Below, one piece after another: positions 2,493-34,664 of a DNA stretch of 35,587 nucleotides; position 1 is the first letter of the stretch, and every line of letters begins with the position of its first letter. Below the pieces are notes generated by a model. That model was given only the letters and a program-made list of their open reading frames with translations. It was not told the origin of the DNA and searched no databases. Origin of the DNA: Candidatus Woesearchaeota archaeon (lineage in GTDB: Archaea; Nanobdellota; Nanobdellia; Woesearchaeales; JAGWAF01); NCBI GenBank assembly GCA_016211165.1, contig JACQSU010000086.1, positions 1-35,587 on the forward strand, in the 5' to 3' direction. A program made the position numbers and the translations under genes.

Positions 2493-2813
2493 ATGGAGAT
2501 TGTTACATTTGAAATCGACACGCGGACATACCCACTCTTTATCATACGCGCCGCAGCGTATGCATTTCTTGATCAAACAACAACCATTCTGTCTATTGCA
2601 TCCGAGAACAACATACGATGCCAACTCATCAGAAAAGAGGGCAGGCCCCCTTTTGAACCCCCAAAAGAGGGGGACACCCCATTTTTAAGCCCTGATATAC
2701 TCAAACAGGCATTCATTGATGAACTCACAACGCAGGCCCACTACTTCTCGCAACTTGAACACACCAAGCACATCACCGGCCCGCTCATCTTGGCAGCCTT
2801 GGGAGGACGATAA
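2493..2813 (+). CDS. hxsD: His-Xaa-Ser system protein HxsD-like
   Basis: 'IDTRTYPLFIIRAAAYAFLD...AFIDEL...TKHITGPLILAAL' fits HxsD; upstream of hxsB. ATG 2493 preferred over TTG 2490. Confidence 0.75.
   Translation: MEIVTFEIDTRTYPLFIIRAAAYAFLDQTTTILSIASENNIRCQLIRKEGRPPFEPPKEGDTPFLSPDILKQAFIDELTTQAHYFSQLEHTKHITGPLILAALGGR
2633..2686. repeat. Two tandem family-2-like palindromes inside hxsD
   Basis: AAAAGAGGGCAGGCCCCCTTTT and AAAAGAGGGGGACACCCCATTTTT, read as 'KEGRPPFEPPKEGDTPF'. Confidence 0.55.
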
Positions 2814-3004
2814 TGCTCCAAACAGATCCTCTGCGGCTCGAACTGGATCATCGCATCTATCCACAACACAAGATCGCTCCTGTGCTCAATGACCTTGGCC
2901 TGCGACCAACAGAACAAACAGACACAGCAACAGTCATCGAATCAGACATCTCCAAACTCCTCCATATCGTCGACCATCTCACTATCCAAAACCGCTCACC
3001 ATGA
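2813..3004 (+). CDS. Small HxsD-like accessory protein (63 aa)
   Basis: Coupled on both sides (TAATG at 2811-2815, ATGA at 3001-3004). 'LELDHRIYP' echoes 'FEIDTRTYP' of the preceding gene. Confidence 0.55.
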   Translation: MLQTDPLRLELDHRIYPQHKIAPVLNDLGLRPTEQTDTATVIESDISKLLHIVDHLTIQNRSP

Positions 3005-4443
3005 TCCTCCCATACCAGACCCGAACCATCACAGGAAAAAACCTTGTGACAACACGACTTGGAACATGGATCATCCTCACAAACGAAGAACTTTCTCAAC
3101 TGTGCACAAATACCTTAGAAGACCCTCTCCGAGAACGCCTCACATTAACCGACATCATCATCACGGAAGAGAACCGAGATCGCGTCCTATCCAATTTCCG
3201 CAGACTCAATGCAAATCTTGGAGCAGCACCAAGCCTGCACATCATCTGCGTCACAGACCGTTGCAACCACAACTGCACCTACTGTCACGCATCAAGCCCA
3301 GAAGCAACAGGAGTTGATATGAGTATTGCGACAGCGAACAAAGTTCTTGATGTGATATTCTCCAGCCCTGCCAAGCACTTGACTATCGAATTCCAAGGAG
3401 GCGAGACGATGATCAATTGGATGGTTGTAACCCACATCGTCACTCAAGCAAGACGCAGGGAAGCAACAAGCGGCAAACACATCAGTCTTGTCATCGTAAG
3501 CAATCTCTCACTCATCGACAACGCCAAACTCGAATTCTTATCAATACATCAAGTGGCAATCACGACAAGCCTTGATGGCCCTGCATCTGTGCACGATGCC
3601 AACAGACCATTCCTTGGCGGTGGCCGCAGCACGCACAAGAGTGTCATGCGCGGGATTGAACTTATACAAAACCACTATAAGAAGCAAGGAAAACCAGCAC
3701 CTCTTAGCGCATTGTGCACAACGACCCGGGCGTCACTCGCGCACGGCCCTGCGATTGTCGATGAGTATGCACGCTTAGGGTTTGAGATCATCCACCTACG
3801 CCCTGTCAATCCAGTTGGCATCGCCAAAAAACGATGGGATCTTGTAGGCTACACTGCCGATGAGTTTATTGCGTTTTGGAAGACTGCGATGGACCACATC
3901 CTTAAGCTGAATCGATCCGGCATACGCATCATCGAGCGGCAGGCCTTTATGATGCTGCAAAAAATACTTGCATTCCGCGATCCGATGTACCTAGGCCTGA
4001 TGAACCCCAGCGGAGCAGGACGCTGTGTTCTCACGTATAACTATGATGGCAAGGTCTACGCAAGCGATGAGGCGCGGATGATTGGAGAAGACATCTTCTG
4101 CCTTGGCAGTGTCGATCTCGGATACGAGAAACTTGCGCGCGATCCGATCGTGGCTGGGCTTGTGCAGGCGTCCATCTTGGACAATACCTGTGGCTCGTGT
4201 CCATATATTCCCTGGTGCGGCATTGACCCTGTGCTCACCTATGCCGCATACGGCAGCATCATCCCACAGATCCCCCTGCATCGGATGCACCAGATCCACC
4301 AGGCGCAGTTTGACTATCTTATTGAGCAGATACTTACACACCCGGACCCATTTTCGGCATTCTATTTGTGGCTGCCAAACTTGGACATGACCCTCACAAG
4401 GGCCCGACTCGGAGATCGCATCCTTGCGCTGGATATGCGGTAA
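3001..4443 (+). CDS. hxsB: His-Xaa-Ser system radical SAM/SPASM maturase HxsB
   Basis: 'SLHIICVTDRCNHNCTYCHAS' (CxxxCxxC), 'IEFQGGE', 'TSLDGP..VHDANR', 'YNYDGKVYASDEARM', 'CGSCPYIPWCGIDPV'. Confidence 0.9.
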   Translation: MILPYQTRTITGKNLVTTRLGTWIILTNEELSQLCTNTLEDPLRERLTLTDIIITEENRDRVLSNFRRLNANLGAAPSLHIICVTDRCNHNCTYCHASSPEATGVDMSIATANKVLDVIFSSPAKHLTIEFQGGETMINWMVVTHIVTQARRREATSGKHISLVIVSNLSLIDNAKLEFLSIHQVAITTSLDGPASVHDANRPFLGGGRSTHKSVMRGIELIQNHYKKQGKPAPLSALCTTTRASLAHGPAIVDEYARLGFEIIHLRPVNPVGIAKKRWDLVGYTADEFIAFWKTAMDHILKLNRSGIRIIERQAFMMLQKILAFRDPMYLGLMNPSGAGRCVLTYNYDGKVYASDEARMIGEDIFCLGSVDLGYEKLARDPIVAGLVQASILDNTCGSCPYIPWCGIDPVLTYAAYGSIIPQIPLHRMHQIHQAQFDYLIEQILTHPDPFSAFYLWLPNLDMTLTRARLGDRILALDMR

Positions 4444-4487
4444 ACCCCACCGCTACCCAGATATAGACGCGTACGATCCCAGTGTCC

Positions 4488-5423
4488 ATGGAACTAGCAT
4501 GGATCATGAGTGTCATCGCATGGGTCACCATCGCGACGCTTGCCGCATACAAGGACCATCGAACATCTCGAATTCCCAATACTCTTAACGCAACAGCCTT
4601 GGCAGTCAGTCTGATGATTCTTGCCGTGATCAAGTCATCGACGCAAACCATCCTTATCAACACAACAGCAACGATAGGCGCCTCACTTGTGCTGTGGAAC
4701 CAGGGATGGTGGCGCGGGGGAGACGCCAAACTCTTCATCGCACTGGGCATCGCCACACCCGCACTCATCACGCACGCAATCTACCCAACTTATCCATCCT
4801 TGAATCTCCTTGCACCAACCCTCATCCTTCCTGCTATCTTGATGAGCATCAACGCCGTGCGCAAAAGCACATGGGCACACCACACAAGCAGCCTTCATGG
4901 CACTATTATGAAGCTCCCACGCTACATCCCCACCCTATTTAGTGCAAGTTGGCTCCTTAGCATCGGCTCGGAACTGATTGGCATCCCTCTCACCTCGCTT
5001 GCAACAATCACTATCACATTCGCCGCACTCGAACTCACACTGCCTAACATACCCTGGCCAATTATCCTCTCGCTTTCCTTGCTAAGACTTCTTATTGACT
5101 CCGCATACCAAAGCACCTCGTTCTTTCTTGCATCCATGCTCATTGTTACTATCTATATCACCGCCACATACCTTGGATTACTTGCCGCTGACTTGCATAG
5201 CAGACATATTCTCGCAGTACGCCTACAACCTGGCATGCGCATCACAGCAGCAACTCTTCCCTCTCACCTGCGTCAGTATAGCGATACTGTCGACATCACA
5301 TCCGATAACATCGGCAGCATTCAATCACATGTGAAAGACCTTCGTATCCTAGACCAATTCACCCTTGGACCATACTTCCTTCTTAGTCAATTTATCATAC
5401 TCATAGCCGAAATAGTTTTATAG
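4488..5423 (+). CDS. A24-family prepilin/preflagellin peptidase (FlaK/PibD-like)
   Basis: Polytopic membrane protein with both catalytic Asp motifs 'AYKDHRTSRIPN' and 'GGDAKL'. Alternative GTG start at 4482. Confidence 0.85.
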   Translation: MELAWIMSVIAWVTIATLAAYKDHRTSRIPNTLNATALAVSLMILAVIKSSTQTILINTTATIGASLVLWNQGWWRGGDAKLFIALGIATPALITHAIYPTYPSLNLLAPTLILPAILMSINAVRKSTWAHHTSSLHGTIMKLPRYIPTLFSASWLLSIGSELIGIPLTSLATITITFAALELTLPNIPWPIILSLSLLRLLIDSAYQSTSFFLASMLIVTIYITATYLGLLAADLHSRHILAVRLQPGMRITAATLPSHLRQYSDTVDITSDNIGSIQSHVKDLRILDQFTLGPYFLLSQFIILIAEIVL

Positions 5424-5444
5424 ACAGACCAAGAGCAAATCTTT

Positions 5445-5825
5445 ATGATTGGAACGCATCACCTGCTTGACCTGTACAGCGTTGATTCCCACAGCCTTAC
5501 GGATCTTGAGCTCATACGCGATGCCTTGCGTGGAGCCTGTGCCGCAGGTCACTTCACAACGCTTTCCGAACACATTCACACATTCCCAGAGGGGGGAATA
5601 ACAGCCATCCTCTTGCTTGCGGAATCCCACATCAGCATCCACACGTACCCAGAACACCGATATGCAGCAATCGACTTGTTTAGCTGCGGAGCACAGGCGC
5701 GCCCAGAAGCTGCCATCCAACACCTCATCACCGCCCTTGCACCAGCGCATCATACTCGCAGTGTGAGCACGCGAGGAGAAGGGATCTGCGCGCGGCCGTT
5801 GCCGGCTCATATCTACAACTCTTGA
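5445..5825 (+). CDS. speD: S-adenosylmethionine decarboxylase proenzyme (short pyruvoyl type)
   Basis: 'GTHHLLDLY', 'GITAILLLAESHISIHTYPE', 'IDLFSCG'; intact E|SH autocleavage site. An arginine-decarboxylase paralog cannot be excluded from sequence alone. Confidence 0.88.
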   Translation: MIGTHHLLDLYSVDSHSLTDLELIRDALRGACAAGHFTTLSEHIHTFPEGGITAILLLAESHISIHTYPEHRYAAIDLFSCGAQARPEAAIQHLITALAPAHHTRSVSTRGEGICARPLPAHIYNS

Positions 5826-5827
5826 TA

Positions 5828-6121
5828 TCACTTACCAGCAACAGGAGGGGGCGGGCACGGACCGCCCTGAATAATTTGGTGGCAATGAATCCCACAATGG
5901 TTACCGTCACCTGTCTCAATACTCAAACTATTCGCGTGGCACGCAGAATTACACGCAGGTGAGCACGAACACTGTGCTAATGTGGGAATCGCTGATGAGG
6001 CAAGACCAAGCGCAATCAGCGCACCAGCCTTCACAACATCGGCCTTGGTCATCCGCCCATTTTCATCTTCAATAAAGAGCGAGACCTTGCGAGCAACTTT
6101 TGGCAAAAGTTTCTCATTCAT
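5828..6121 (-). CDS. Putative precursor peptide of the Hxs-type cluster (97 aa, Cys/His-rich core)
   Basis: GAGGAGG RBS before ATG 6121. Leader 'SLFIEDENGRMTKADVVKAG', hydrophobic 'ALIALGLASSAIPTLA', core with 7 Cys and 4 His. Lies within a peptide-maturase cluster. Confidence 0.7.
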   Translation of the reverse strand: MNEKLLPKVARKVSLFIEDENGRMTKADVVKAGALIALGLASSAIPTLAQCSCSPACNSACHANSLSIETGDGNHCGIHCHQIIQGGPCPPPPVAGK

Positions 6122-6794
6122 ACACACGCGCCTCCTCGGCAATCGAACGGCATATGGCACTCTTGATCAGAGGGCACGCTTGCGGATTCTTGGTCACTGT
6201 CACTGTACAGGCCATCATATCAGTCACATCTGAGATATAAGCACACAAGGATTCCTCATTAGCACGCAGAGCTTGCACCCAGTGCACGTGACCCTTGCAA
6301 ACCTCTTGATCAGAAAGTTGTGGGTAGCGGCTGCACAGGGACGAATCATCCATGATGATGGCTTGACATTCAATAGCCTCCTCACCATAAGGACACAATG
6401 ATGTTTGATTCCGCTCTACAGCGTTGCATACGGCAGCGTATTCTGGATCAATGATATCCTCACAAGAACCAGTCCCATCGATCATTCGAACCATAACAGA
6501 GAGTGCCTTGCAATCTTCCGCAGACGGATGCGCATCACACGCAGAAGAATTCGCGCTAGCCAAGGCTACACACAATGCATCAAGATTGCTCTTCTCCACG
6601 CACTGAGCAGTTCGTTGTTCTATCACCTCGGTTACCGGAACCTTAGAAGACCATACTGAAATGCCGACGACAATAACAAATCCAACGACGATGAACACCC
6701 AGTGTCTCATAGGCCAAAATCCGCAGACGCGGACACCTCGGATTTCTTTCTTGTTTTTGTCACGCCGCCCGCTCTCGTGAACGGTTCTTGACAT
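6114..6794 (-). CDS. Membrane-anchored protein with short Cys-pair repeats
   Basis: GGAGG RBS before ATG 6794; one TM helix 'WVFIVVGFVIVVGISVW'; repeats such as 'CEDIIDPEYAAVC' and 'CAYISDVTDMMAC'. Alternative start at 6710. Confidence 0.7.
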   Translation of the reverse strand: MSRTVHESGRRDKNKKEIRGVRVCGFWPMRHWVFIVVGFVIVVGISVWSSKVPVTEVIEQRTAQCVEKSNLDALCVALASANSSACDAHPSAEDCKALSVMVRMIDGTGSCEDIIDPEYAAVCNAVERNQTSLCPYGEEAIECQAIIMDDSSLCSRYPQLSDQEVCKGHVHWVQALRANEESLCAYISDVTDMMACTVTVTKNPQACPLIKSAICRSIAEEARVYE

Positions 6795-6807
6795 ATTCCC
6801 TCCTGTC

Positions 6808-7917
6808 TTAGGGTATAAAACCGTTTCGACAATCGACGACGTGCACAATCTTGCCAGATGTCGTGCGATGAACCAGTCCACCCATAACAATGCTCACATC
6901 AACACCATGCACTGTCGCGATCCTTTCTCGCAACTGCGCAACCTGCGCAGGCGTGGCATGCGCAACGCACACCACAACCTCATCGTGCACACCATCGGCT
7001 GCATGTCTTAACTCCAAGGAGAATTCAGGATGACCTATCGCGCTCTCGACTAGCGCCGCAAGCGAATCCTTGGAGCAGACATCTCCCCAAATCTTGATCT
7101 GATCATCTGAACGTCCCAGTATCTTGATCAACCGCACAGAACCCTCTGATCGCAACTCGACCCGATCACCAATCAAATACCTCACTATGGGCATCGACTC
7201 ATTCATCAGATCCGTGATGAGCAGGTCCCCCACACCCTCTTTGCTAATCCTGCCGTTGTCATCCCTCACTTCAAGGACGAGGGAACCTCCAAGGACATGA
7301 AACCACCCGTCATCAGCCTGCGATGCGACGATGCCGACCTCGGTCGCAGCATAAAACATCCGAACCCTGGCCGTCGGCACCTTGGAAGAAAAGAACTGCA
7401 TACATTCCCTTGTCACTTTTCCGCCTGTGAGCATAATGAGACGCAATGAGGGCAGGGCATCCACATGCTTAAGAATCTCAAACACGTGCGAGACAAATCC
7501 CACAAGCACTGACACGCCAGCAGACTCAAGCTTAAAACACAGCAGATCCATATTATGCTCTGTAAGCACACCGCAATGAATGATCATCGCAGGAAGCAAA
7601 CGATCAAAACCCACATCAAGAATCACGTTATCCAGAAGACTCCCCACAACATCATCTGCCTTGATTTCCTCCAAGAAGAGTCTGGATCCCTGCGCAATCT
7701 GACTCTCCACAGCTTTGCTTGATAGAAAAATCAACTTATGAGCCCCCTCTGATCCCGACGTGTTGAGCACATAACGCGGACGGACAGGACAGTCAGTAAT
7801 TGACCACGATGCGAGGTGCTCCCTTGTCACAATAGGTATGTCCCCGGATCCATGCCAGGATCTATACTTCGGATGCGCACGCCATTTGCAGGAGATATCC
7901 ACAACATCGGCCATCAT
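6808..7917 (-). CDS. Phenylacetate-CoA ligase (PaaK/CapK)-like adenylate-forming enzyme
   Basis: ANL-superfamily motifs 'TSGSEG..K', 'YAATEVG', 'RYLIGD', 'GRSDDQIKIWG', 'RTTSGK'. Confidence 0.82.
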   Translation of the reverse strand: MMADVVDISCKWRAHPKYRSWHGSGDIPIVTREHLASWSITDCPVRPRYVLNTSGSEGAHKLIFLSSKAVESQIAQGSRLFLEEIKADDVVGSLLDNVILDVGFDRLLPAMIIHCGVLTEHNMDLLCFKLESAGVSVLVGFVSHVFEILKHVDALPSLRLIMLTGGKVTRECMQFFSSKVPTARVRMFYAATEVGIVASQADDGWFHVLGGSLVLEVRDDNGRISKEGVGDLLITDLMNESMPIVRYLIGDRVELRSEGSVRLIKILGRSDDQIKIWGDVCSKDSLAALVESAIGHPEFSLELRHAADGVHDEVVVCVAHATPAQVAQLRERIATVHGVDVSIVMGGLVHRTTSGKIVHVVDCRNGFIP

Positions 7918-9641
7918 AGACCACCCAAGCGCCTCCTTCGCACATATCTTATCTCGCGAATGAAATCGCGATCCGCCGTGAACCGTAGCGGCTCATCAGC
8001 ATTGTAGATAGCGTCCTCAACCTTCCCTGTTACAAGAGGATGCGCGAACTCCGTCGACAAGAGATGCAAGACCAACTCCTTACGACCAAGCGCTGCCAAA
8101 AGCCATTGATCATTCTGACCGACCGTTATATAGTCCTTGGCAGCAGCTTCTAACGAAGACAAGTCTGGATACTTCTCACGCAAAGCCTTTGGCACATCAT
8201 TCCGACTCGTAACACCCTTTTCCTTGAGCACAAGCCCCATTGCAAATGCCGATTCAATCGCCTCCCCTTCTATTATCCAGGCAGGGTTGCGCGGGGTAAA
8301 CGCGCAAAACACGTGCTTGCCAGGACGTTGACCAATCGCTTCTACAGAACGTGAGAGAAAGAGACGGAATCCTGCACCGGTATAGGGAGGATCAAAACAG
8401 CACACATCCACCATACCTATAAGATCCTGCGGCAAGGGATCGCGCAAGTCATGCACACGCGCACGCACGGGGAGACGATGTGTCGCTGCGACTTCATTGA
8501 TACGAGACACCACACGTGGATCAATATCAAGCACGACAATGTCATCAAACACTCCCTGCGCCGCGAGCAGCAGCGAGAGAAAATCATCATCACCAAGAAC
8601 CAACACCTTTCGCTGCCCCCGAGCGGCCTTTGCAATGTACGCGGCCCTTACCTTTAGATCCTCTTCACACACCCGAAGCTGCGCAAAAGAGCGATCCTCA
8701 ACACAACGCATGTCTGACACATCGATACGCACGGCCTGCGGAGTCCAGTGATGCATGGCATAGAACCTGCCTGCGTCCTCATGGACTATACGATGTTCCA
8801 TAAACATCCGCAACACCCGCGCGACAAGTAAAATTGCCATACCAACATCCTGCGCAATAGACCACACATCCTTGCCATCACAACAATCAAAAATATCAAG
8901 CACATCCTCTGCGCACAATTCCACGGCGCAATGATTCGTCAATTGTCCGGCAACATGCTCGGCTACATCCTTAAGCAGATTCACTGGCCGAAGCTCTTCA
9001 TCACGGATTGAAGCAATTGCTCCCTTGCACACATCCTTCTTTGCGCAGACATGGCATCGGGGCCGTTGTGACCGAGCCTGTGCAACAAGCAATCCAGCAT
9101 CGTGCTGCTCAAGATCCCCGAGCAGACATAACGGAATATTATCTGCAAGAATAACACCTGGAAACAGCGCCATCACAAGCCGCGTCTGCGCAGCAGCAGC
9201 ATCCACAGGAATATACTCATGTTCTGCTACCGGGACCACCTGTGACTGCGCACCTGGATAGAACAAGATGATCCTCTCAATCCCCTGGTTCCTTGCCTTG
9301 CGAACCATCGAATTGAGACGATACACACTTGATGCTACCAAGGGAATGATCAGCACATCAGCAGGGGATATATGCGCCGCTTCCTCTGTTAGCACAGTAT
9401 CAACTAAGACACCCACTGTCACATTCGTTGAGCGCGACACCTTTGAAGGATGCGATGTAATCACGAACGTCTTCTTATCCCTGCTGCAGATAAGCTCCTG
9501 GATGGTATCCCATTGCGGATGATCTGTTGGCTCGGCACCAGCGATGAGCACCAAACCTTGCATACCGGAGATCCCATCCCTAATCTGATCAAGCCCCACA
9601 AACACATCACCATCACGCAACCTACAGAACACAGCCTCCAT
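7914..9641 (-). CDS. Fusion of a degenerate HxsC-like radical SAM domain and a BpsA-like (branched-chain polyamine synthase) aminopropyltransferase
   Basis: N-half: 'GAEPTDHP', 'NIPLCLL', 'CHVCAKKDVCKG...EELRPV', no CxxxCxxC. C-half: 'VLVLGDDDFLSL', 'VVLDIDPR', 'HDLRDPLP', 'DPPYT.AGFRLFLSR'. Confidence 0.8.
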   Translation of the reverse strand: MEAVFCRLRDGDVFVGLDQIRDGISGMQGLVLIAGAEPTDHPQWDTIQELICSRDKKTFVITSHPSKVSRSTNVTVGVLVDTVLTEEAAHISPADVLIIPLVASSVYRLNSMVRKARNQGIERIILFYPGAQSQVVPVAEHEYIPVDAAAAQTRLVMALFPGVILADNIPLCLLGDLEQHDAGLLVAQARSQRPRCHVCAKKDVCKGAIASIRDEELRPVNLLKDVAEHVAGQLTNHCAVELCAEDVLDIFDCCDGKDVWSIAQDVGMAILLVARVLRMFMEHRIVHEDAGRFYAMHHWTPQAVRIDVSDMRCVEDRSFAQLRVCEEDLKVRAAYIAKAARGQRKVLVLGDDDFLSLLLAAQGVFDDIVVLDIDPRVVSRINEVAATHRLPVRARVHDLRDPLPQDLIGMVDVCCFDPPYTGAGFRLFLSRSVEAIGQRPGKHVFCAFTPRNPAWIIEGEAIESAFAMGLVLKEKGVTSRNDVPKALREKYPDLSSLEAAAKDYITVGQNDQWLLAALGRKELVLHLLSTEFAHPLVTGKVEDAIYNADEPLRFTADRDFIREIRYVRRRRLGGL

Positions 9642-9661
9642 TATCGTGAGGTTGCGCCATG

Positions 9662-9715
9662 ATATAAATGCTTTTTGAACTTCCTCACTTCGTTCGGAAG
9701 TTAAACCTTTTTATA
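9662..9715. promoter_or_regulatory. Divergent promoters with a central inverted repeat
   Basis: Minus-strand ATTTATAT (9662-9669) ~21 nt before ATG 9641; plus-strand TTTTTATA (9708-9715); AACTTCC-N11-GGAAGTT at 9678-9702 between them. Confidence 0.6.
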
Positions 9716-9729
9716 GCTACAAAAACAGG

Positions 9730-9776
9730 AGGATGTTTGAAAAAGTCGGTCTATGGCCACATTTTTTCAACATCCT
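9730..9776. repeat. Palindromic element, family 1 (5' UTR copy)
   Basis: AGGATGTTTGAAAAA-GTCGGTCTATGGCCACAT-TTTTTCAACATCCT. Confidence 0.7.
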
Positions 9777-9790
9777 AAGAGGAGTGTATT

Positions 9791-12760
9791 ATGCAACAAT
9801 CCATTGCTGTGATCACAATTATCCTGGTGCTCATCCTTGTTGCGTCCCCAACATTTGCACAAAGCGGCGTTCTCAAACTCCTCTTTCCTGACCAAACCAC
9901 GGAAGCCATCGTCACAGACGAATGCGCAGGCACAGGCAAATGCTGCATCCCCACAGCCATCGCAGACAAGGTCTGCACAAGCGAAGGCACGTACATCCTC
10001 AACTTCAAATACACAGGAGACGTACAGAGCGCAGGCGAAGTCCTCAAAAACGCCCACGCCGTCAACTGGGATACGGAGCAATACTGCAAAGGCACGGAGA
10101 GCACGGATGTGCTATGCTTCCAAAACAAAAGCGTAAACTTCTCATCTGTATCAGGGAAGTGCTGCGGAGCACGCCCCAGCAGGGACTGCGGACTGCGCAG
10201 CGGCACAGAAGTCTGCGTCAACCCCACCAAAGAACCAGAACACTGGGAACTCATGCACCTTGCAGAAAACCACGGAGATATCATCGATGTCGACTGCGCG
10301 CAAACACAACTCGTAAGCGATGGAACTGAATTCTACGGATGTGGACTCTACCAAGGCATCGCGACACAGCATCCCACGTTCGATCTTTTGGAAGTCACCA
10401 GAAGTGGCGTTGACCAATACCAAAAGCACGGCTACCTGTGCGCAGAACCAGACCCTGGAAACAACAACACCCACCCGGAAATCATCGAATGCCTCGGCGA
10501 CGGACGATCATACAACCAAAAACAAGGAAACATCGGACAGATCGGAGAAGCACACCAACGCGGCGAACTCTTCTTTGCCCAACTTGGCCGCGACGATGTC
10601 ATCCAAACCGGAGCCCTTGGCAACTTTAATGGCGCAAGCGGCAAACTCATTGTTAAACTCAACAACACCTGGGCAGGGTCAGAAGACCTTACCAGAGTCA
10701 TCTTCTTTGCAGAAGCGGACCTTGACACATACATCTCCATAGAAAAAAGCAAGAACAAACTCACCTGCAATGCAGTCAATGGGGGAAGCAGTATCAAAAC
10801 AACATTTGACATTAGCAGTCTTACACCATCACCGCAAAGCGGCATTATCCACACGATTATCCTCACGTGGAACACCAATGGCCAATTCATCTGCTCCTTT
10901 GATGGAGTATCACAAACCAAAACAGGATACAACGCCATCAATGTCAGAGAACTCTTTGTCAACACAGGACCCCGAGGAGCCCAAGGATCGCAATCACCCA
11001 TGCGCGCGCGCATCTCAAAAGACGCGAATGCGCCCATACTCTACTGCACCAAGGATGCCCAATGGGTCAAGGACCTTGACACAAAGGACTCGATTACGTG
11101 CCGCGCTGCAGGCCTTCGCTGGACAGGAAGCAAGTGCTGCTCTGAAGACGAAGACCTGCCAGGCGAATCCTACAATGACAAAGACCCCCCAAACTACAAT
11201 GACCAAGAAAGCGGCGCCTGCTTTAAATCCGCGCATGTCGCCAATGGATTCCTCGTCCCACAAACCAATGACACGGTCCTTGCGATCCTCGGAGAATTCT
11301 ACGGATGTCAACTCAACGAGACCGCACCACACTTTCTTGCACTCACTGACACCCACACAGGAAAACCCCTTATCAATACCACCAATAGGTGCACACTCGC
11401 CTATAATGCAACACGAAATGTCAACGTGAACTACTACTGCTCATTCCGCAACAACTGGACACGCACGCTTAAACAGGATCAGTTGTTCCCACGAAGCGTC
11501 GCACCTGAAGTTCGCTCCGTCCTGAATCCCGCACAAAACCGCAGCGCCATCGACACAGAATGCTGCCCACAACAACAATGCTGGAGCGGCATTGCCTGCG
11601 TGAACGACCAACGAAACGACCCAAATCCTCGAAACACCATCAAAGGATTCCGCTGCATCGGAGGCAACTGGACCACGATGACACCAAAACACACCTTTGA
11701 TGACCGTGTCTTCGGATTCTGCCCACGCAACGAACAATGCCTTGTCAACCCAAGCGCAAACGCATCTGCAAACGACCTACCACACGCCATTAGCTTTGCA
11801 CATCCGGAACGAGGACCCATCTGCATCACTAATGGGCAATACATCCTTCAATCAATCACTCGTGGCGATGCCACGCAGAGCACATCAACATACTGCAACA
11901 ATGGGTCATGGACCAGCAGAACCAATATCCTCGCATCATACCTTGCAAGCATCGGAGAAACCCAAGCACCCAACAACTACGCACTCTTCTGCGACCGATT
12001 CCGCAACACACTCAATTTCTTTGAATACCGAGCACTCCCGGACGCCAACTTTGTGTCGCACTACATGGACGCAACATGCACAGGGCCTGACAAAACACCA
12101 ACCCCCTGCGTCAACGAATTCTGCGTCCTCAAATACGGAGACAAGGTCGCCTGGGGAACCACACTTAACAAACCCATCAACGACTCAAGAGAGGGATTTC
12201 TTAATGCCGTTGGAAAACCAGTCACGCACTGTGACAACGCACTGCAAGACGACGCACAATTCCACGCCTGCGGCGCAAACATGTGGCACAACAATGCCCT
12301 GGGAGCCATCATCCACCTTCCCACAGGAGCAGTGCCAGGCATCACAACTACCGAAGCCCTAACCGCCGGCGCAGCATACATCGAGGCGCGCATGCAAGCC
12401 ATTGACACATTCATGGAATCCGCAACACTTGCAGACTTTCGAACCTTCATCCTAAGCACCCACATGTTCGAAAACCTCTATATCAACCGCGCAGGCCAAA
12501 AAGACCTTTTTGCGTTTTTGCAAACAAACAGAGTCAATGGCACACCCATCGACTACCTTGCCGCACGCTACATGGGAATCAATATCACCGACCCACGCGG
12601 CGTGTCGGGCTGCGACCTTATCAGAAACCGCATCACCGTCGATTTAGCCAAAGACTGCAAAACTGTGGGCACAACAAACACCTTTGTCGGCGTACAAACA
12701 CCAGGAGAAGGAAACCTAAGAATTATATGGCAGGACTTCACAGCAAAACTACGCAAATAA
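9791..12760 (+). CDS. Large secreted Cys-rich protein (989 aa), probable LamG/ConA-like domain; paralog of 17989-20949
   Basis: Signal peptide ending 'SPTFA|Q'; many Cys; 'HTIILTWNTNGQFICSFDG'. Shares 'WTGSKCCSE.EDLP.ESYND.DP' and 'TPCVNEFCVLKY' with the paralog. Confidence 0.8.
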   Translation: MQQSIAVITIILVLILVASPTFAQSGVLKLLFPDQTTEAIVTDECAGTGKCCIPTAIADKVCTSEGTYILNFKYTGDVQSAGEVLKNAHAVNWDTEQYCKGTESTDVLCFQNKSVNFSSVSGKCCGARPSRDCGLRSGTEVCVNPTKEPEHWELMHLAENHGDIIDVDCAQTQLVSDGTEFYGCGLYQGIATQHPTFDLLEVTRSGVDQYQKHGYLCAEPDPGNNNTHPEIIECLGDGRSYNQKQGNIGQIGEAHQRGELFFAQLGRDDVIQTGALGNFNGASGKLIVKLNNTWAGSEDLTRVIFFAEADLDTYISIEKSKNKLTCNAVNGGSSIKTTFDISSLTPSPQSGIIHTIILTWNTNGQFICSFDGVSQTKTGYNAINVRELFVNTGPRGAQGSQSPMRARISKDANAPILYCTKDAQWVKDLDTKDSITCRAAGLRWTGSKCCSEDEDLPGESYNDKDPPNYNDQESGACFKSAHVANGFLVPQTNDTVLAILGEFYGCQLNETAPHFLALTDTHTGKPLINTTNRCTLAYNATRNVNVNYYCSFRNNWTRTLKQDQLFPRSVAPEVRSVLNPAQNRSAIDTECCPQQQCWSGIACVNDQRNDPNPRNTIKGFRCIGGNWTTMTPKHTFDDRVFGFCPRNEQCLVNPSANASANDLPHAISFAHPERGPICITNGQYILQSITRGDATQSTSTYCNNGSWTSRTNILASYLASIGETQAPNNYALFCDRFRNTLNFFEYRALPDANFVSHYMDATCTGPDKTPTPCVNEFCVLKYGDKVAWGTTLNKPINDSREGFLNAVGKPVTHCDNALQDDAQFHACGANMWHNNALGAIIHLPTGAVPGITTTEALTAGAAYIEARMQAIDTFMESATLADFRTFILSTHMFENLYINRAGQKDLFAFLQTNRVNGTPIDYLAARYMGINITDPRGVSGCDLIRNRITVDLAKDCKTVGTTNTFVGVQTPGEGNLRIIWQDFTAKLRK

Positions 12761-12761
12761 C

Positions 12762-13577
12762 ATGACACAACCACAACCAGCAAGGAAACCATCAGTCGAT
12801 GAGTACATCACCAATCTCAAAACCGGAGGATGGACCAATTCTGATGCGTTACGAAAAGCAATCAGCGAAGGATACGGTAATGAAATTATTACCACCATAC
12901 GCAACGATCATGCGCACATAGTCACGCGCAACATCCTCATTGGCCTATGCATGCTCTTCGCTGCAATTCTCATAGGACTCACATTTACAAGACCAGGAAC
13001 CCCTGCCTATGACCTCACCTACCAAGCCACCCAAACACTCAACCTTGCGCCATGCCTTGCCTTGCAAGACCCAGGAGAGAGAACCCACTGCATCGAATCG
13101 GTAAGCGCAGCAGCCCAACGGATCCTATCACACTCGCAAAGCGATTTACACGCACGAACCCTTGCAAGCACAGTCCTTGCAGCAACAACAGAACCCAACC
13201 GATGCGAGACACTAGAAGCAACACTTCGAACCACATGCACAGACCAGTCATCATATTGGCGCGCCATCATCAGCGGCGACACATCATCATGCTCGAGCCT
13301 TAGTGATACACCTGCGCGCACGGCGTGCGTCATCGAAACACTCCAACGACACGATCCAGCACAAGCAGCACAACTCGCCGCATCATACGAAGAAGCGCTC
13401 ACCACTGCGCTCCAAGGCCGCAACCCCTCCTTATGCAACCAACTAGGCCAGAAGGATCTTGTGACGCAATGCACGATCGCAGCATCCTTTCAGCTCGCCA
13501 CGACAACACAGGACCCCATCCACTGCCAATCGATCTCCGATGATACCATTCGAGCACAGTGCACAATGCTCACTTGA
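12762..13577 (+). CDS. Membrane-anchored protein with short Cys-pair repeats
   Basis: TM 'ILIGLCMLFAAILIGLTF'; repeats 'CSSLSDTPARTAC', 'CNQLGQKDLVTQC', 'CQSISDDTIRAQC'. Confidence 0.75.
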   Translation: MTQPQPARKPSVDEYITNLKTGGWTNSDALRKAISEGYGNEIITTIRNDHAHIVTRNILIGLCMLFAAILIGLTFTRPGTPAYDLTYQATQTLNLAPCLALQDPGERTHCIESVSAAAQRILSHSQSDLHARTLASTVLAATTEPNRCETLEATLRTTCTDQSSYWRAIISGDTSSCSSLSDTPARTACVIETLQRHDPAQAAQLAASYEEALTTALQGRNPSLCNQLGQKDLVTQCTIAASFQLATTTQDPIHCQSISDDTIRAQCTMLT

Positions 13578-13593
13578 TAGCGCCACGCTACAC

Positions 13594-13602
13594 TTTTATA
13601 TA
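13594..13602 (+). promoter_or_regulatory. TATA box for the beta-helix gene
   Basis: TTTTATATA ~24 nt before ATG 13626. Confidence 0.6.
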
Positions 13603-13625
13603 TCATCTGCACCATAATCGACCTG

Positions 13626-33773: not shown

Positions 33774-34664
33774 GCGCAATGCCACAAGCGCAGACGTCGC
33801 ATCACCGACCCGTCTTGCAATATTGATCATCGCATGCGCGACTTCCGCATCACCGCGGCACTGCAGGAGATCAACCCCCTTGCGCTCCACGTCCTTACGC
33901 ATACGCGATACAGCATCCATATCATCAAACCCTTGCGCATACACTGCATTATAATATGATCTCACAAGCACCGCCGTCGCACAGAGAAGATCCTGACATC
34001 GTGGCGTGACCCTTGGCTCTTTGGGCAGACTTTGAATAAGATACTTGTACTCATCAGCAAGCTTTTCAACATTCCAGAGAATCATCGTATGCATCGAAGG
34101 AATCGGTGATTGCGATTCCCCCCTATGGATGAGACGGATGCAGAAATTCGTGAGCTGATTATTCGAGCGCTCCAGAAGAGCAACGGATCGCAACTCATCC
34201 CAATCCCTGCGTTTAATCGCATTAGCAACACCCTCTGCAAGCGAGACCGTGACCAGAAGCGCACGACGAAACACCGCATCAAATTGATCATTGGCATCCT
34301 TGGCCACTTGCCGAATCGTCACCACACCTTTGGCCTGGCTTATGATCGCAAACCCAAGCAAGGTATCACGGATGAGATCCTCGACGATGCGAACTTGATC
34401 CTGGCTCTGATAGCGGACCAGCATCTCATCAGCACCAATCTTATGCAAACCCGAGATCGTCCACCGAATCATCCGCTCGGAAAGACCACTAATGTCAACG
34501 TTCGCTGTACGGTGAGCATATGCGACCTGCGAGATCCGCAACTCGGCGCCATCCTCTTTAATATGCAACTCACTACCTTTCCTCACACCTTGCCGCTTTA
34601 CCCACGAAGCAGGAAGCGAAATTACCAACGTGTTCTTCGCAAGCTGAATCGCCTTTCGCTGCAT
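33738..34664 (-). CDS. Archaeal AbrB-PhoU family phosphate-uptake regulator
   Basis: 'RKAIQLAKNTLVISLPASWVKRQGVRKGSEL' (AbrB/SpoVT domain) followed by PhoU-like helices 'NVEKLADEY' and 'RRVGD'. Confidence 0.85.
   Translation of the reverse strand: MQRKAIQLAKNTLVISLPASWVKRQGVRKGSELHIKEDGAELRISQVAYAHRTANVDISGLSERMIRWTISGLHKIGADEMLVRYQSQDQVRIVEDLIRDTLLGFAIISQAKGVVTIRQVAKDANDQFDAVFRRALLVTVSLAEGVANAIKRRDWDELRSVALLERSNNQLTNFCIRLIHRGESQSPIPSMHTMILWNVEKLADEYKYLIQSLPKEPRVTPRCQDLLCATAVLVRSYYNAVYAQGFDDMDAVSRMRKDVERKGVDLLQCRGDAEVAHAMINIARRVGDATSALVALRSCQGLGSGEKE

What the first reader, a model, noticed from the sequence alone, without database searches (positions are those of the whole stretch)
2493..9641. 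Hxs-type radical SAM peptide cluster expanded with aminopropylation, adenylation and prepilin-peptidase genes in an archaeon
Seen: two operons converge tail-to-tail with a 2-nt gap (5825/5828), each with its own TATA box and tight coupling. They are hxsD, hxsD-like, hxsB, A24 peptidase, speD on + and HxsC-like/BpsA fusion, PaaK-like ligase, Cys-repeat membrane protein, small Cys/His peptide on -. Known: His-Xaa-Ser systems pair HxsB and HxsC radical SAM enzymes with HxsD and a peptide; SpeD makes decarboxylated SAM, the donor used by BpsA aminopropyltransferases. Inference: donor supply (speD) and transferase sit in opposite operons, and so do hxsB and the HxsC-like domain, so the two halves look like one pathway. 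The product could be an exported or surface peptide that is radical-SAM-crosslinked, (poly)aminopropylated and possibly acylated. I know of no described system with this combination.
Basis: partly seen in the sequence, partly recalled or inferred. Interest (0 to 1): 0.92.

Follow-up and report, generated by a model that had tools for sequence, protein, structure and literature searches.

The report
Archaeal HXS cluster with aminopropyltransferase fusion
A small-genome archaeon carries a version of a recently described anti-virus peptide system in which one maturation enzyme has lost its iron-sulfur site and is fused to a polyamine-type transferase, which hints at a new way of adding positive charges to a peptide.

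Summary
They are hxsD, a degenerate hxsD-like ORF, hxsB, an A24 peptidase and speD on +. A fusion protein, a short adenylate-forming ligase, a Cys-repeat membrane protein and an HxsA-family precursor lie on -. The stop codons converge 2 nt apart.

The fusion's N-terminal domain is HxsC-like only by remote homology. It lacks the CxxxCxxC motif in 14 of 14 family members. Its C-terminal part is a complete BpsA-type aminopropyltransferase with an invariant GDDD motif.

Comparative genomics separates two layers:
- **Widespread layer.** The A24 paralog, HxsD, HxsD-like, HxsB and HxsA form a common Nanoarchaeota/Woesearchaeota form of the HXS system, which is a known antiphage system in bacteria. 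A Cys-repeat membrane protein and the ligase join it in some genomes.
- **Rare layer.** SpeD plus the pseudo-HxsC~BpsA fusion is rare. All three loci whose context I could read (the window, G007 and metagenome locus L085) place both genes among hxs genes, each in a different arrangement.

The one-pathway reading is therefore supported by gene context. Peptide aminopropylation is inferred only. Against it, 50 of 51 other HxsB genomes lack BpsA_C, and a same-genus genome has the same peptide type without speD or the fusion.

I rate it a new variant of a known kind, interest about 0.78.

The parts
2493..2813 (+). hxsD (106 aa)
   Evidence: TIGR03976 scores 15.2 bits, E 0.021, below the cut-off of 50. 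It is 24-38% identical to 12 HxsD ORFs that sit upstream of HxsB in relatives (alignment A2). Of those, the G001 copy scores 51.2 bits and the G006 copy 46.3.
2813..3004 (+). hxsD-like small ORF (63 aa), degenerate
   Evidence: It holds the same position as 68-73 aa ORFs in G001, G007, G207 and G042. The G207 and G042 copies reach NF038315 HxsD_rel (43.4 and 41.8 bits, cut-off 41). The window copy scores only 4.8 bits against a profile of those four.
3001..4443 (+). hxsB, radical SAM/SPASM maturase (480 aa)
   Evidence: TIGR03978 scores 403.1 bits against a cut-off of 370, covering profile positions 2-458 of 466. CNHNCTYC and a C-terminal Cys motif can be read in the translation.
4482..5423 (+). 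Hxs-linked A24 aspartyl peptidase paralog (313 aa)
   Evidence: PF01478 scores 34.8 bits against 26.5. D25, G80, D81, K83 and L84 are invariant in an alignment of 5 Hxs-linked copies. This paralog type is in 43 of 400 phylum genomes, 36 of them HxsB-positive, and 25 of those 36 have it within 10 kb of hxsB.
5445..5825 (+). speD, pyruvoyl S-adenosylmethionine decarboxylase (126 aa)
   Evidence: TIGR03330 scores 113.3 bits against 75.65 and PF02675 scores 112.4. An ESHISIHTYPE stretch is present; its role in self-processing is recalled. It is the only speD found in the genome.
5828..6121 (-). HxsA-family precursor, Cys/His-rich variant without His-Xaa-Ser repeats (97 aa from the ATG)
   Evidence: The N-terminus matches NF038309 HxsA3 at positions 2-34 (E 8e-4, below cut-off). 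It shares the motif LPK..K..F..E..G...K ...KAG plus a hydrophobic stretch with 20 archaeal HxsA ORFs. The C-terminal half has 7 Cys and 4 His and no HxS repeat. The nearest relative is the G001 peptide, 40% identical.
6114..6794 (-). membrane protein with paired-Cys repeats (226 aa from the first ATG)
   Evidence: No Pfam or NCBIfam hit. Homologues lie directly downstream of HxsA in G224 (E 2e-17) and G010 (E 0.003), and next to the cluster in L085 (tblastn E 3e-5).
6808..7917 (-). short adenylate-forming (ANL/PaaK-like) ligase (369 aa)
   Evidence: PF00501 scores 33.5 against 29.9. The best NCBIfam hits are far below their cut-offs: DVU_1553 47.6 against 300 and PaaK 29.6 against 646. The two best homologues in 400 genomes lie in hxs loci: G207 at E 4e-32 and G042 at E 2e-20.
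7914..9641 (-). fusion protein (575 aa). aa 1-~225 (nt ~8967-9641): HxsC-like domain without an Fe-S triad. aa ~240-300: winged-helix-like linker. aa ~305-575 (nt 7914-~8729): BpsA-type aminopropyltransferase.
   Evidence: BpsA_C scores 90 bits. The top Foldseek hits for the whole model are BpsA structures 5xnf, 5xnc and 6j27 (E about 1e-14). GDDD and the D of DPPY align to Tk/Tth BpsA. For the N-terminus, hhalign against 34 archaeal HxsC-like proteins gives probability 98.5% and E 2.5e-15. The N-terminal model has pLDDT 83.6, and its top PDB matches are radical SAM enzymes at weak E of 2.5e-3 to 9e-3. There is no CxxxCxxC motif, and only 23 Cys-free codons lie upstream.
9642..9790 (.). divergent intergenic region between the fusion operon and the large secreted protein
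   Evidence: A TATA-like TTTATATC lies on the minus strand at 9668-9661, about 22 nt upstream of the fusion ATG. It was not tested against chance.
9791..12760 (+). 989-aa Cys-rich secreted protein, a frequent neighbour of hxsB
   Evidence: tblastn finds relatives within 9 kb of hxsB in 7 of 20 loci and in L085. It has no Pfam family. Whether it belongs to the system is open.

Best explanation
This is an archaeal (Nanoarchaeota/Woesearchaeota-type) HXS-type peptide-effector system carrying a rare add-on.

Core system (shown by homology and recurrent context):
- HxsD, an HxsD-like protein and the radical SAM enzyme HxsB mature an HxsA-family precursor.
- That precursor has a conserved basic leader followed by K-x-G and a hydrophobic helix.
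- A dedicated, divergent A24 aspartyl peptidase paralog travels with the system.
- Inferred: the A24 paralog removes the leader at the small residue before the helix, as prepilin peptidases do. The His/Cys-rich tail would then be exposed at the cell surface on a membrane-anchoring helix.
- A Cys-repeat membrane protein and a short adenylate-forming ligase are accessory genes that recur in some such loci. Their roles are unknown.

Add-on (shown by domain analysis and by three loci):
- A canonical HxsC is missing.
- In its place stands a catalytically dead HxsC-like domain with no Fe-S triad, fused to a complete BpsA-type aminopropyltransferase with an intact GDDD and DxPY active site.
- SpeD, which makes the donor decarboxylated SAM, is encoded inside the cluster.
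- Inferred: the dead HxsC domain keeps HxsC's role of docking HxsD and HxsA. It presents the peptide, or an intermediate bound to it, to the transferase, which adds aminopropyl groups (+57 Da each) and so adds positive charge.

By analogy with bacterial HXS, the mature product would act at the envelope, most likely against viral genome entry. This last step is inferred only.
For: Core system:
- HxsB is over its cut-off.
- HxsB occurs in 52 of 401 sampled phylum genomes, 41 of them over the cut-off.
- An HxsA-type ORF lies beside hxsB in 17 of 20 loci read; one of them (L056) is divergent.
- PF01478 lies within 10 kb of hxsB in 25 of 51 genomes.
- The Hxs-type A24 paralog and HxsB co-occur: 36 genomes have both, 7 only the A24 paralog, 15 only HxsB and 342 neither.
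- The paralog keeps its place in the cluster through rearrangements. In G042 the order is HxsA-A24-CysTM-ligase. In the window it lies after hxsB.

Add-on:
- The fusion family has 14 members. 0 of 14 have CxxxCxxC, 14 of 14 have GDDD and 11 of 14 have CxxCx5C. All 34 archaeal HxsC-like proteins used as reference do have the triad.
- The N-terminus of the L085 fusion hits TIGR03977 HxsC at 70.3 bits, E 1e-19, profile positions 63-288 of 292. It scores 134.5 bits against the archaeal HxsC-like profile, more than any true radical SAM gene of its locus.
- G007 fusion: 63.4 bits against that profile.
- hhalign of the window plus G007 N-termini against the same profile gives 98.5%.
- The BpsA_C domains of the three fusions with known context form a clade, support 99/93.

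Context:
- L085: hxsB'-hxsA-rSAM-speD-fusion-rSAM-B12 rSAM on one strand. speD overlaps the start of the fusion.
- G007: speD-hxsD-hxsD-like-hxsB-hxsA-CysTM, with 22 nt between speD and hxsD. The fusion lies 9 kb upstream on the same contig.
- Window: speD lies 21 nt after the A24 gene, and the fusion heads the operon that ends in hxsA.
- No HxsC over its cut-off in the window's genome.

Literature: bacterial HxsC binds HxsD and is modelled to position the HxS motif. HxsA is thought to act through positive charge on DNA (PMC13128918, sections 8-11 read).
Against: - BpsA_C is not found in 50 of 51 other HxsB-positive genomes. In the one that has it (G181), it sits beside speD on a different contig from hxsB.
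- G001 is in the same genus and 100% complete. It has the same Cys-rich peptide type and hxsD/hxsB, but no speD, no BpsA_C and no ligase homologue were found.
- Free-standing speD-bpsA pairs exist in G010, G008 and G181. speD and BpsA next to each other therefore needs no peptide.
- This speD is the genome's only one, and a SpeE-like gene lies on another contig. speD may serve ordinary polyamine synthesis as well.
- The window's own N-terminal domain scores only 4.6 bits against the HxsC-like profile and has no NCBIfam hit. Its assignment rests on its homology to the G007 protein (BLASTP E 3e-8 for the N-termini alone).
- The window peptide has no His-Xaa-Ser repeat, so the acceptor site is unknown.
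- Only three fusion loci have readable context, and two of them are from one family.
- RNase P p30 is near hxsB as often as A24 is by tblastn, 11 of 20 each. Adjacency alone in this order can therefore be inherited synteny.
- No biochemical datum exists for any archaeal component.
Confidence: 0.6

Rival explanations
1. Two independent modules lie side by side. speD plus the BpsA-type protein make free branched or long-chain polyamines for the cell. The hxs genes make their peptide without them. The HxsC-like N-terminal domain is a decayed relic of a gene-fusion accident and has no targeting role.
For: - speD-bpsA pairs stand alone in G010, G008 and G181.
- 50 of 51 other HxsB-positive genomes have no BpsA_C.
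- G001 has the same peptide type without these genes.
- These are the only speD and the only BpsA_C of the genome, and a SpeE-like gene lies elsewhere.
- The pseudo-HxsC domain of the window protein is strongly degenerate and carries an internal deletion relative to the rest of the family.
Against: - The fusion is conserved as a family of 14 proteins at 24-60% identity, with the N-terminal domain retained in all of them. A useless relic would not persist over that divergence.
- All three loci with readable context place speD and the fusion among hxs genes, in three different gene orders.
- In L085 the pair sits between hxsA and further radical SAM maturases on one strand.
- The second half of the BpsA_C profile matches poorly: positions 16-141 of 243 for the fusion, against 5-234 for the free-standing G010 enzyme. 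That fits a changed acceptor.
Confidence: 0.2
2. The system is integrated, but the transferase does not act on the peptide directly. The fusion makes a polyamine at the maturation complex. The adenylate-forming ligase then joins that polyamine by an amide bond to a carboxylate of the peptide (its C-terminus or an Asp/Glu), giving a peptide-polyamine conjugate.
For: - In the window the ligase gene overlaps the fusion gene by 4 nt, and both lie in the operon that ends in hxsA.
- ANL enzymes activate carboxylates (established knowledge).
- The ligase recurs in hxs loci.
Against: - The two other hxs loci with the ligase (G207, G042) show no speD or fusion hit in the 16-17 kb read, and neither genome has BpsA_C.
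- The two other fusion loci (G007, L085) show no ligase hit in the DNA read.
- The ligase and the fusion therefore occur independently everywhere except in this window.
Confidence: 0.08
3. The biochemistry is as in the best explanation, but the role is not antiviral. The matured His/Cys-rich, pilin-like peptide would be a surface structure for metal binding or for attachment of the episymbiont to its host cell.
For: - The tails are rich in His, or in Cys in this genus.
- The precursors have a prepilin-like N-terminus with a dedicated A24 peptidase.
- The neighbours are huge secreted Cys-rich proteins.
- The genome is about 1 Mb.
- No PADLOC defence model matches beyond generic radical SAM and methyltransferase similarity.
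Against: - The only experimental datum for any HXS system is antiphage defence in E. coli (PMC13128918).
- PADLOC-DB 2023 predates that paper, so its silence means little.
Confidence: 0.25

Closest known systems
Bacterial HXS antiphage system, HxsA/B/C/D (Li et al., Nat Commun 2026, PMC13128918; abstract and sections 8-11 read)
   Same: - HxsB is over the TIGR03978 cut-off.
- HxsD-family and HxsD-like small proteins lie directly upstream of hxsB.
- The precursor has an N-terminus that is removed and, in most archaeal loci, C-terminal His-Xaa-Ser repeats.
- An HxsC-type domain is present.
   Different: - The host is archaeal; the paper reports 99.7% of systems in Pseudomonadota and its text never mentions archaea.
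- The gene order is not D-B-C-A.
- A dedicated A24 peptidase paralog travels with the system.
- HxsA has a prepilin-like hydrophobic helix, and no peptidoglycan-binding domain was seen.
- In this window the HxS repeats are replaced by a Cys/His-rich tail.
- HxsC has no Fe-S triad and is fused to an aminopropyltransferase.
- speD, a ligase and a Cys-repeat membrane protein are added.
BpsA, N4-bis(aminopropyl)spermidine synthase of Thermococcus kodakarensis and Thermus thermophilus (PDB 5xnc, 6j27; review PMC12979288, passages read)
   Same: - The fold of aa ~240-575 is the same: Foldseek top hits at E about 1e-14.
- The GDDD motif and the Asp of DPP(E/Y)T are aligned.
- An acidic, Tyr-containing C-terminal segment is conserved in the family.
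- It is paired with speD.
   Different: - It carries an extra ~230-aa HxsC-like domain at the N-terminus.
- Only the first half of the Pfam profile matches well.
- It is embedded in a peptide-maturation cluster.
- The host is a small-genome archaeon, whereas the reviewed enzymes come from thermophiles.
- The acceptor is unknown.
Archaeal class III (prepilin-like) signal peptides and their A24 peptidases, PibD/FlaK/EppA (recalled, no paper read)
   Same: - The peptidase is of the A24 family with two invariant Asp, the second in a G-D-x-K-L context.
- The substrates have a charged leader, a small residue (G/A/S) and then a hydrophobic helix.
   Different: - The leader is long (about 30 aa) and strongly conserved (PK.KKK..SFL..EDGKISK).
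- The basic residue lies at -3 rather than -2.
- The peptidase is a second, divergent and longer paralog, beside the canonical copy that each genome also has.
- Cleavage has not been shown.
Pseudo-radical-SAM proteins (NCBIfam TIGR04347 'pseudo-SAM/SPASM' and TIGR04150 'pseudo-rSAM'; names seen)
   Same: A radical SAM-like barrel that has lost the cluster-binding Cys triad, in a peptide-maturation setting.
   Different: It belongs to a different lineage (HxsC-like) and is fused to a transferase. The window protein matches neither model.
Microcin C maturation, aminopropyl group on a peptide-nucleotide (recalled; only search listings seen)
   Same: A ribosomal peptide product that carries an aminopropyl group derived from SAM.
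   Different: There the group is added as 3-amino-3-carboxypropyl from SAM and decarboxylated afterwards, by unrelated enzymes. No dcSAM, no BpsA-type enzyme and no radical SAM partner take part.

Membership tests
HXS (His-Xaa-Ser) system | HxsB radical SAM/SPASM maturase | tested here: met
   TIGR03978 scores 403.1 bits against a cut-off of 370.
HXS (His-Xaa-Ser) system | HxsC, a second radical SAM enzyme with a CxxxCxxC cluster site (essential in E. coli, PMC13128918 section 8) | tested here: not met
   No TIGR03977 match over the cut-off in the genome; the best is 28 bits. The only HxsC-like domain is the fusion's N-terminus, which has no CxxxCxxC.
HXS (His-Xaa-Ser) system | HxsD small protein (TIGR03976) | tested here: inconclusive
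   The window copy scores 15.2 bits against 50. It is alignable with 12 syntenic copies, one of which passes the cut-off (G001, 51.2 bits).
HXS (His-Xaa-Ser) system | HxsA effector with His-Xaa-Ser repeats | tested here: not met
   The window peptide shares only the N-terminal leader (NF038309 at 19.2 bits against 65; motif). Its tail has no HxS repeat. The feature is met in the sister loci G007 and L085 (HSSHSSHSSHSSY).
HXS (His-Xaa-Ser) system | Antiviral function | not testable with these tools
   Known only for an E. coli system (PMC13128918).
BpsA / PF01861 aminopropyltransferases | Pfam BpsA_C over the gathering score, and a BpsA fold | tested here: met
   90 bits against 27, but only profile positions 16-141 of 243. 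The first nine Foldseek hits are all BpsA-family chains (BpsA entries plus 2qm3, a related predicted methyltransferase), at E 1.5e-14 to 8e-12.
BpsA / PF01861 aminopropyltransferases | GDDD motif (Asp159/Asp160 of Tk-BpsA position dcSAM) and Asp225 | tested here: met
   GDDD lies at aa 350-353, and D417 of DPPY aligns with the Tk and Tth residues (with the chain numbering offset worked out by hand). Both are invariant in 14 of 14 family members. The roles of the residues are taken from PMC12979288.
BpsA / PF01861 aminopropyltransferases | C-terminal acidic carrier cluster, and Glu259/Tyr290/Tyr316 at the acceptor site | tested here: inconclusive
   The phmmer alignment to 5xnc ends before these residues. 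The family does have a conserved (D/E)-x-I-Y-Y-E segment near the C-terminus.
BpsA / PF01861 aminopropyltransferases | Aminopropylation of spermidine at N4 | not testable with these tools
   This needs an enzyme assay.
Radical SAM superfamily (fusion N-terminus) | CxxxCxxC [4Fe-4S] site | tested here: not met
   0 of 14 family members have it. There is no room upstream in the window, in G007 (26 nt after the previous gene) or in L085 (the start overlaps speD).
Radical SAM superfamily (fusion N-terminus) | Partial TIM-barrel fold and the G-G-E-P strand | tested here: met
   hhalign gives 98.5% to HxsC-like proteins from the GGEP column onward. The model has pLDDT 83.6, and 9 of its 10 best PDB matches are radical SAM enzymes, at weak E values of 2.5e-3 to 9e-3.
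Class 1 pyruvoyl AdoMet decarboxylase (SpeD) | Equivalog model over its cut-off | tested here: met
   TIGR03330 scores 113.3 against 75.65.
Peptidase A24 (prepilin/preflagellin peptidases) | Pfam model over its cut-off, and two catalytic Asp | tested here: met
   PF01478 scores 34.8 against 26.5. D25 and D81 are invariant in 5 of 5 Hxs-linked copies. That these are the catalytic pair is recalled.
PaaK phenylacetate-CoA ligase | Equivalog model over its cut-off | tested here: not met
   TIGR02155 scores 29.6 against 646.3. Only superfamily membership holds: PF00501 scores 33.5 against 29.9.

The most novel reading that the evidence does not exclude
A BpsA-type enzyme, aimed by a dead HxsC domain and fed by a cluster-encoded SpeD, installs aminopropyl (polyamine-like) groups on a ribosomally made effector. 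This would be the first dcSAM-dependent aminopropylation of a peptide or protein. The polycationic, pilin-like product is released by a dedicated A24 peptidase and blocks viral genome entry at the envelope of DPANN archaea.
Probability: 0.3. Interest if true: 0.9.

Novelty: new variant of a known kind. Interest (0 to 1): 0.78.

Why it matters
- **New chemistry.** If the transferase acts on the peptide, this is a new post-translational chemistry: aminopropylation from decarboxylated SAM. It would also be a worked example of a dead radical SAM domain reused as a targeting module.
[quoted passage not shown] The archaeal loci offer a concrete candidate protease, the linked A24 paralog. The add-on would raise charge by a different route.
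- **Spread in archaea.** An envelope-level system known from Pseudomonadota is common in small-genome archaea (HxsB in 52 of 401 sampled genomes). It often comes with large arrays of HxsC-like paralogs. No paper found in my searches mentions any of this.

Tried and rejected
- **Direct HMM test of the window's N-terminal domain.** No NCBIfam or Pfam family at E<=10 or 0.01. phmmer of aa 1-235 against 1.8 billion representatives gave only two weak hits. The domain could be placed only through relatives.
- **PqqD-like hit.** A weak hit at aa 476-514 (E 0.012-0.03) lies inside the transferase domain. I dismissed it as chance.
- **Complex prediction.** I tried the pseudo-HxsC domain (aa 1-235) with HxsD. 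Verdict: no answer, score 0.00. This is evidence neither for nor against binding.
- **The look-up of sequencing runs**: no RNA holder listed. Three DNA runs of one study hold the stretch. Read laying was not used, so I have nothing on expression or co-transcription.
- **PADLOC**: only generic pVip (radical SAM) and mad2 (methyltransferase-like) similarity.
- **Bacterial promoter and terminator scan**: counts close to the shuffles, and not suited to archaea.
- **B12-radical SAM partner of the fusion** (present in G007 and L085): no homologue found in the window's genome, which is 88% complete.
- **Cys-repeat membrane proteins.** Those of G006, G007 and G042 look alike by eye, but jackhmmer did not link them to the window's protein.
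- **Bacterial BpsA_C relatives with N-terminal extensions** (L087, L090, L091). I read their neighbourhoods as ORF lists only. I saw nothing interpretable and dropped them.
- **Tools and files I could not use.** The contigs of P0013-P0023 therefore could not be read. Supplementary files of PMC13128918 were not open to me; its distribution tables could list non-bacterial HXS.
- **Correction to my notes.** My note of 12 of 20 for A24 by tblastn was a miscount. One search shows 11 of 20.

Full report
**What is in the window.** The ORF map shows five co-directional genes on the + strand from 2493 to 5825 and four on the - strand from 9641 down to 5828.
- The stop codons converge with two bases between them.
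- Junctions are tight. hxsD and the small ORF overlap by 1 nt, and the small ORF and hxsB by 4 nt. The gap from hxsB to A24 is 38 nt and from A24 to speD 21 nt.
- On the minus strand the fusion and the ligase overlap by 4 nt. The gap from the ligase to the Cys-repeat gene is 13 nt. That gene and the peptide gene overlap by 8 nt when the internal ATGs at 6794 and 6121 are used.
- The + genes follow directly on ThiI-like, PP-loop and RNase P p30 genes, so the + 'operon' may start further upstream.
- TATA-like strings are present upstream of 2493 and of 9641. I did not test them statistically.
- The genome is 976 kb in 92 contigs and 88% complete.
- Its same-family relative G007 lies on a record titled Nanoarchaeota archaeon. 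Relatives of the fusion protein are named Candidatus Woesearchaeota.

**Gene identities**.
- HxsB passes its equivalog model, 403 bits against 370.
- SpeD passes (113 against 75.65), as do A24 (34.8 against 26.5) and the ANL domain of the ligase (33.5 against 29.9).
- The ligase is far from PaaK itself, 29.6 against 646.
- BpsA_C scores 90 bits, but only over the first half of the profile.
- HxsD is sub-threshold in the window at 15 bits. It aligns with 12 syntenic copies, one of which passes the cut-off.
- The second small ORF matches the position of 'HxsD-like' NF038315 proteins, which pass in G207 and G042. The window copy itself is nearly unrecognisable.

**The peptide is an HxsA.**
- Its N-terminus weakly matches HxsA3.
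- I read the DNA next to hxsB in 20 other genomes and found an HxsA-type ORF in 17; one of them is divergent. Further copies are in G007, G010, G207, G042 and L085.
- They share a leader (I/L)PK(I/L)KKK..SFL..E(D/E)GKISK, then ..(L/I)K(A/T)G, about 15 hydrophobic residues and a variable stretch. Most end in His-Xaa-Ser repeats closed by an aromatic residue.
- The window's peptide and that of the same-genus genome G001 keep the leader and the helix. Their tails are Cys/His-rich and have no HxS repeats.

**HXS is now a known system.** A 2026 paper (PMC13128918; abstract and sections 8-11 read) reports the following.
- In E. coli, HxsB, HxsC and HxsD mature HxsA by N-terminal cleavage and a +8 Da change in an SHRSS motif.
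- HxsC binds HxsD.
- The Fe-S Cys of both enzymes are required.
- Mature HxsA blocks phage DNA entry, probably through positive charge.
- 99.7% of the systems are placed in Pseudomonadota.
- The words archaea, peptidase and polyamine do not occur in the main text. I could not see the supplements.

**The widespread archaeal layer.**
- HxsB occurs in 52 of 401 sampled genomes of the phylum, 41 of them over the cut-off.
- PF01478 lies within 10 kb of hxsB in 25 of the 51 other HxsB genomes.
- Most genomes have two A24 genes, and the linked one is the weaker-scoring, longer copy.
- p30, a housekeeping gene, is near hxsB just as often by tblastn, 11 of 20 each. I therefore also tested the phyletic pattern with a profile of five Hxs-linked copies. 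36 genomes have both the paralog and HxsB, 7 have the paralog only, 15 have HxsB only and 342 have neither. The odds ratio is 117. Relatedness inflates any p-value.
- The paralog stays in the cluster through rearrangements (G042: HxsA-A24-CysTM-ligase).
- Both Asp of the A24 fold are invariant.
- Together with the small residue (G, A or S) before the hydrophobic helix of HxsA, this makes the paralog the best candidate for the leader peptidase. That is an inference.
- The window's Cys-repeat membrane protein has homologues directly after hxsA in G224 and, weakly, in G010, and beside the L085 cluster.
- The ligase matches 18 of 401 genomes at E<=1e-5, counting the window's own. The two best (G207 at 110 bits, G042 at 71.5 bits) both lie in hxs loci. 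The rest score 36 bits or less, in longer ORFs, and I did not examine their contexts.
- Many genomes also carry arrays of roughly 300-aa HxsC-like radical SAM paralogs next to hxsB. None reaches the TIGR03977 cut-off; the best scores 221.7 bits.

**The fusion protein.**
- The C-terminal 340 residues are a whole BpsA. Foldseek's best nine hits are BpsA-family chains.
- GDDD and the Asp of DPPY align with the residues that a review describes as essential.
- The N-terminal 230 residues gave nothing by direct search.
- The G007 homologue is 26% identical over the full length at E 5e-58, and the N-termini alone give E 3e-8. It hits HxsC and HxsC4 weakly and a profile of 34 archaeal HxsC-like proteins at 63 bits.
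- A third member, from metagenome locus L085, hits TIGR03977 at 70 bits over positions 63-288 of 292 and the archaeal profile at 134.5 bits.
- Profile-profile comparison of the window plus G007 N-termini with that set gives 98.5% probability, starting at the GGEP strand.
- A model of the domain (pLDDT 83.6) finds radical SAM enzymes as 9 of its 10 best PDB matches, at weak E-values.
- A search with the L085 protein found 12 full-length relatives, one of which is that protein itself.
- Across all 14 proteins, none has CxxxCxxC, all have GDDD, and three have also lost the C-terminal CxxCx5C. All 34 reference HxsC-like proteins do have the triad.
- There is no room for a missed N-terminal exon.
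- The domain is therefore a conserved pseudo-enzyme.

**Does the add-on belong to the hxs system?**

Against:
- BpsA_C is absent from 50 of 51 other HxsB genomes.
- tblastn found speD, ligase, fusion and Cys-repeat protein in 0 of 20 hxsB neighbourhoods.
- G001 has no speD or BpsA_C.
- speD-bpsA pairs stand alone in G010, G008 and G181.
- The genome's single speD may also feed a SpeE-like enzyme.

For:
- Every fusion whose surroundings I could read sits with speD among hxs genes.
- In G007, speD is 22 nt upstream of hxsD-hxsD-like-hxsB-hxsA-CysTM. The fusion, next to a B12-radical SAM gene, lies 9 kb away on the same contig beside p30.
- In L085 the order on one strand is hxsB'-hxsA-rSAM-speD-fusion-rSAM/SPASM-B12 rSAM, with speD overlapping the fusion start.
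- In the window the fusion heads the operon that ends in hxsA.
- The three transferase domains form a clade (99/93). This points to one fusion event that was then kept through three different gene orders.
- A profile of the family found no other full-length copy in 400 sampled genomes, so the add-on is rare.
- Its nearest free-standing relative (G148) lies among four radical SAM genes and a PqqD-like ORF, with no speD hit in the 19 kb read.

**Verdict.**
The cluster is one system by the standard of conserved, rearranged gene neighbourhood, but on three loci only.
- The 'HxsC' part cannot be a radical SAM enzyme.
- The A24, ligase and membrane components are general features of archaeal HXS loci and not novelties of this window.
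- Peptide aminopropylation is a coherent hypothesis. It fits the charge-based model of HxsA action, but it has no direct evidence.
- My odds: about 0.9 that this is an HXS-type system with a dedicated A24 peptidase; about 0.7 that speD and the fusion work in it; about 0.35-0.4 that the peptide itself is the aminopropyl acceptor.

Noticed in passing
relatives: G154:C13:28-37 kb, G342:C2:1-11 kb, G235:C2:43-60 kb, G167:C5:36-46 kb, G121:C11:5-18 kb, G404:C7:35-40 kb, G358:C1:27-40 kb: Tandem arrays of up to about 9-14 HxsC-like radical SAM paralogs (~300 aa) lie next to or near hxsB in many genomes of the order. All are below the TIGR03977 cut-off; the best scores 221.7 bits. The window's genome has none.
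   Followed up: partly
L093 (G148:C8) 3847-14456: The closest free-standing relative of the fusion's wHTH-BpsA part (322 aa, 207 bits against the family profile) sits among four radical SAM genes, a 53-aa ORF and a 90-aa PqqD-like ORF. No speD hit in the 19 kb read. This may be a second peptide-maturation setting for a BpsA-type enzyme.
   Followed up: partly
L007 2151-4142 (G007) and L085 4951-6942: A 663-aa B12-binding radical SAM protein with a weak methyltransferase-like C-terminus lies next to, or one gene from, the fusion in both other loci. No homologue was found in the window's genome.
   Followed up: partly
window 9791-33773: A run of very large + strand ORFs (989, 726, 475, 986, 467, 1949 and 942 aa) has almost no Pfam family; the only hit is beta-helix/NosD in 13626-15806. 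Composition skew is strong across the window: GC skew down to -0.39 and AT skew up to +0.43. The 1949-aa ORF was not scanned.
   Followed up: no
window 12762-13577: A second membrane protein with paired-Cys repeats (271 aa) follows the 989-aa protein. It resembles the Cys-repeat protein at 6114-6794 by eye. G002 has a homologue in the same place (tblastn E 6e-15).
   Followed up: no
L040 12058-13719 (G001): The Hxs-linked A24 peptidase of the same-genus genome is 553 aa. It has a long insertion or extension that weakly resembles a squalene-hopene cyclase C-terminal repeat, 24 bits against 26.1. The genome search reports one TAG inside its match.
   Followed up: no
L083 (G207) 4210-6457 and L084 (G042) 9347-12183: The two hxs loci that also hold the ligase carry two to three further genes of about 220-385 aa between or beside the hxs genes. 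I read them as ORFs only and did not scan them against families.
   Followed up: no
G000:C74:187-630: A SpeE-like gene (PF01564, 51 bits) lies on another contig of the window's genome. Similar genes are in G002 and G007. It may be a second consumer of decarboxylated SAM.
   Followed up: partly
window 33738-34664 (-): A 308-aa ORF has a sub-threshold MazE/AbrB-type N-terminus, 22.7 bits against 24.7.
   Followed up: no
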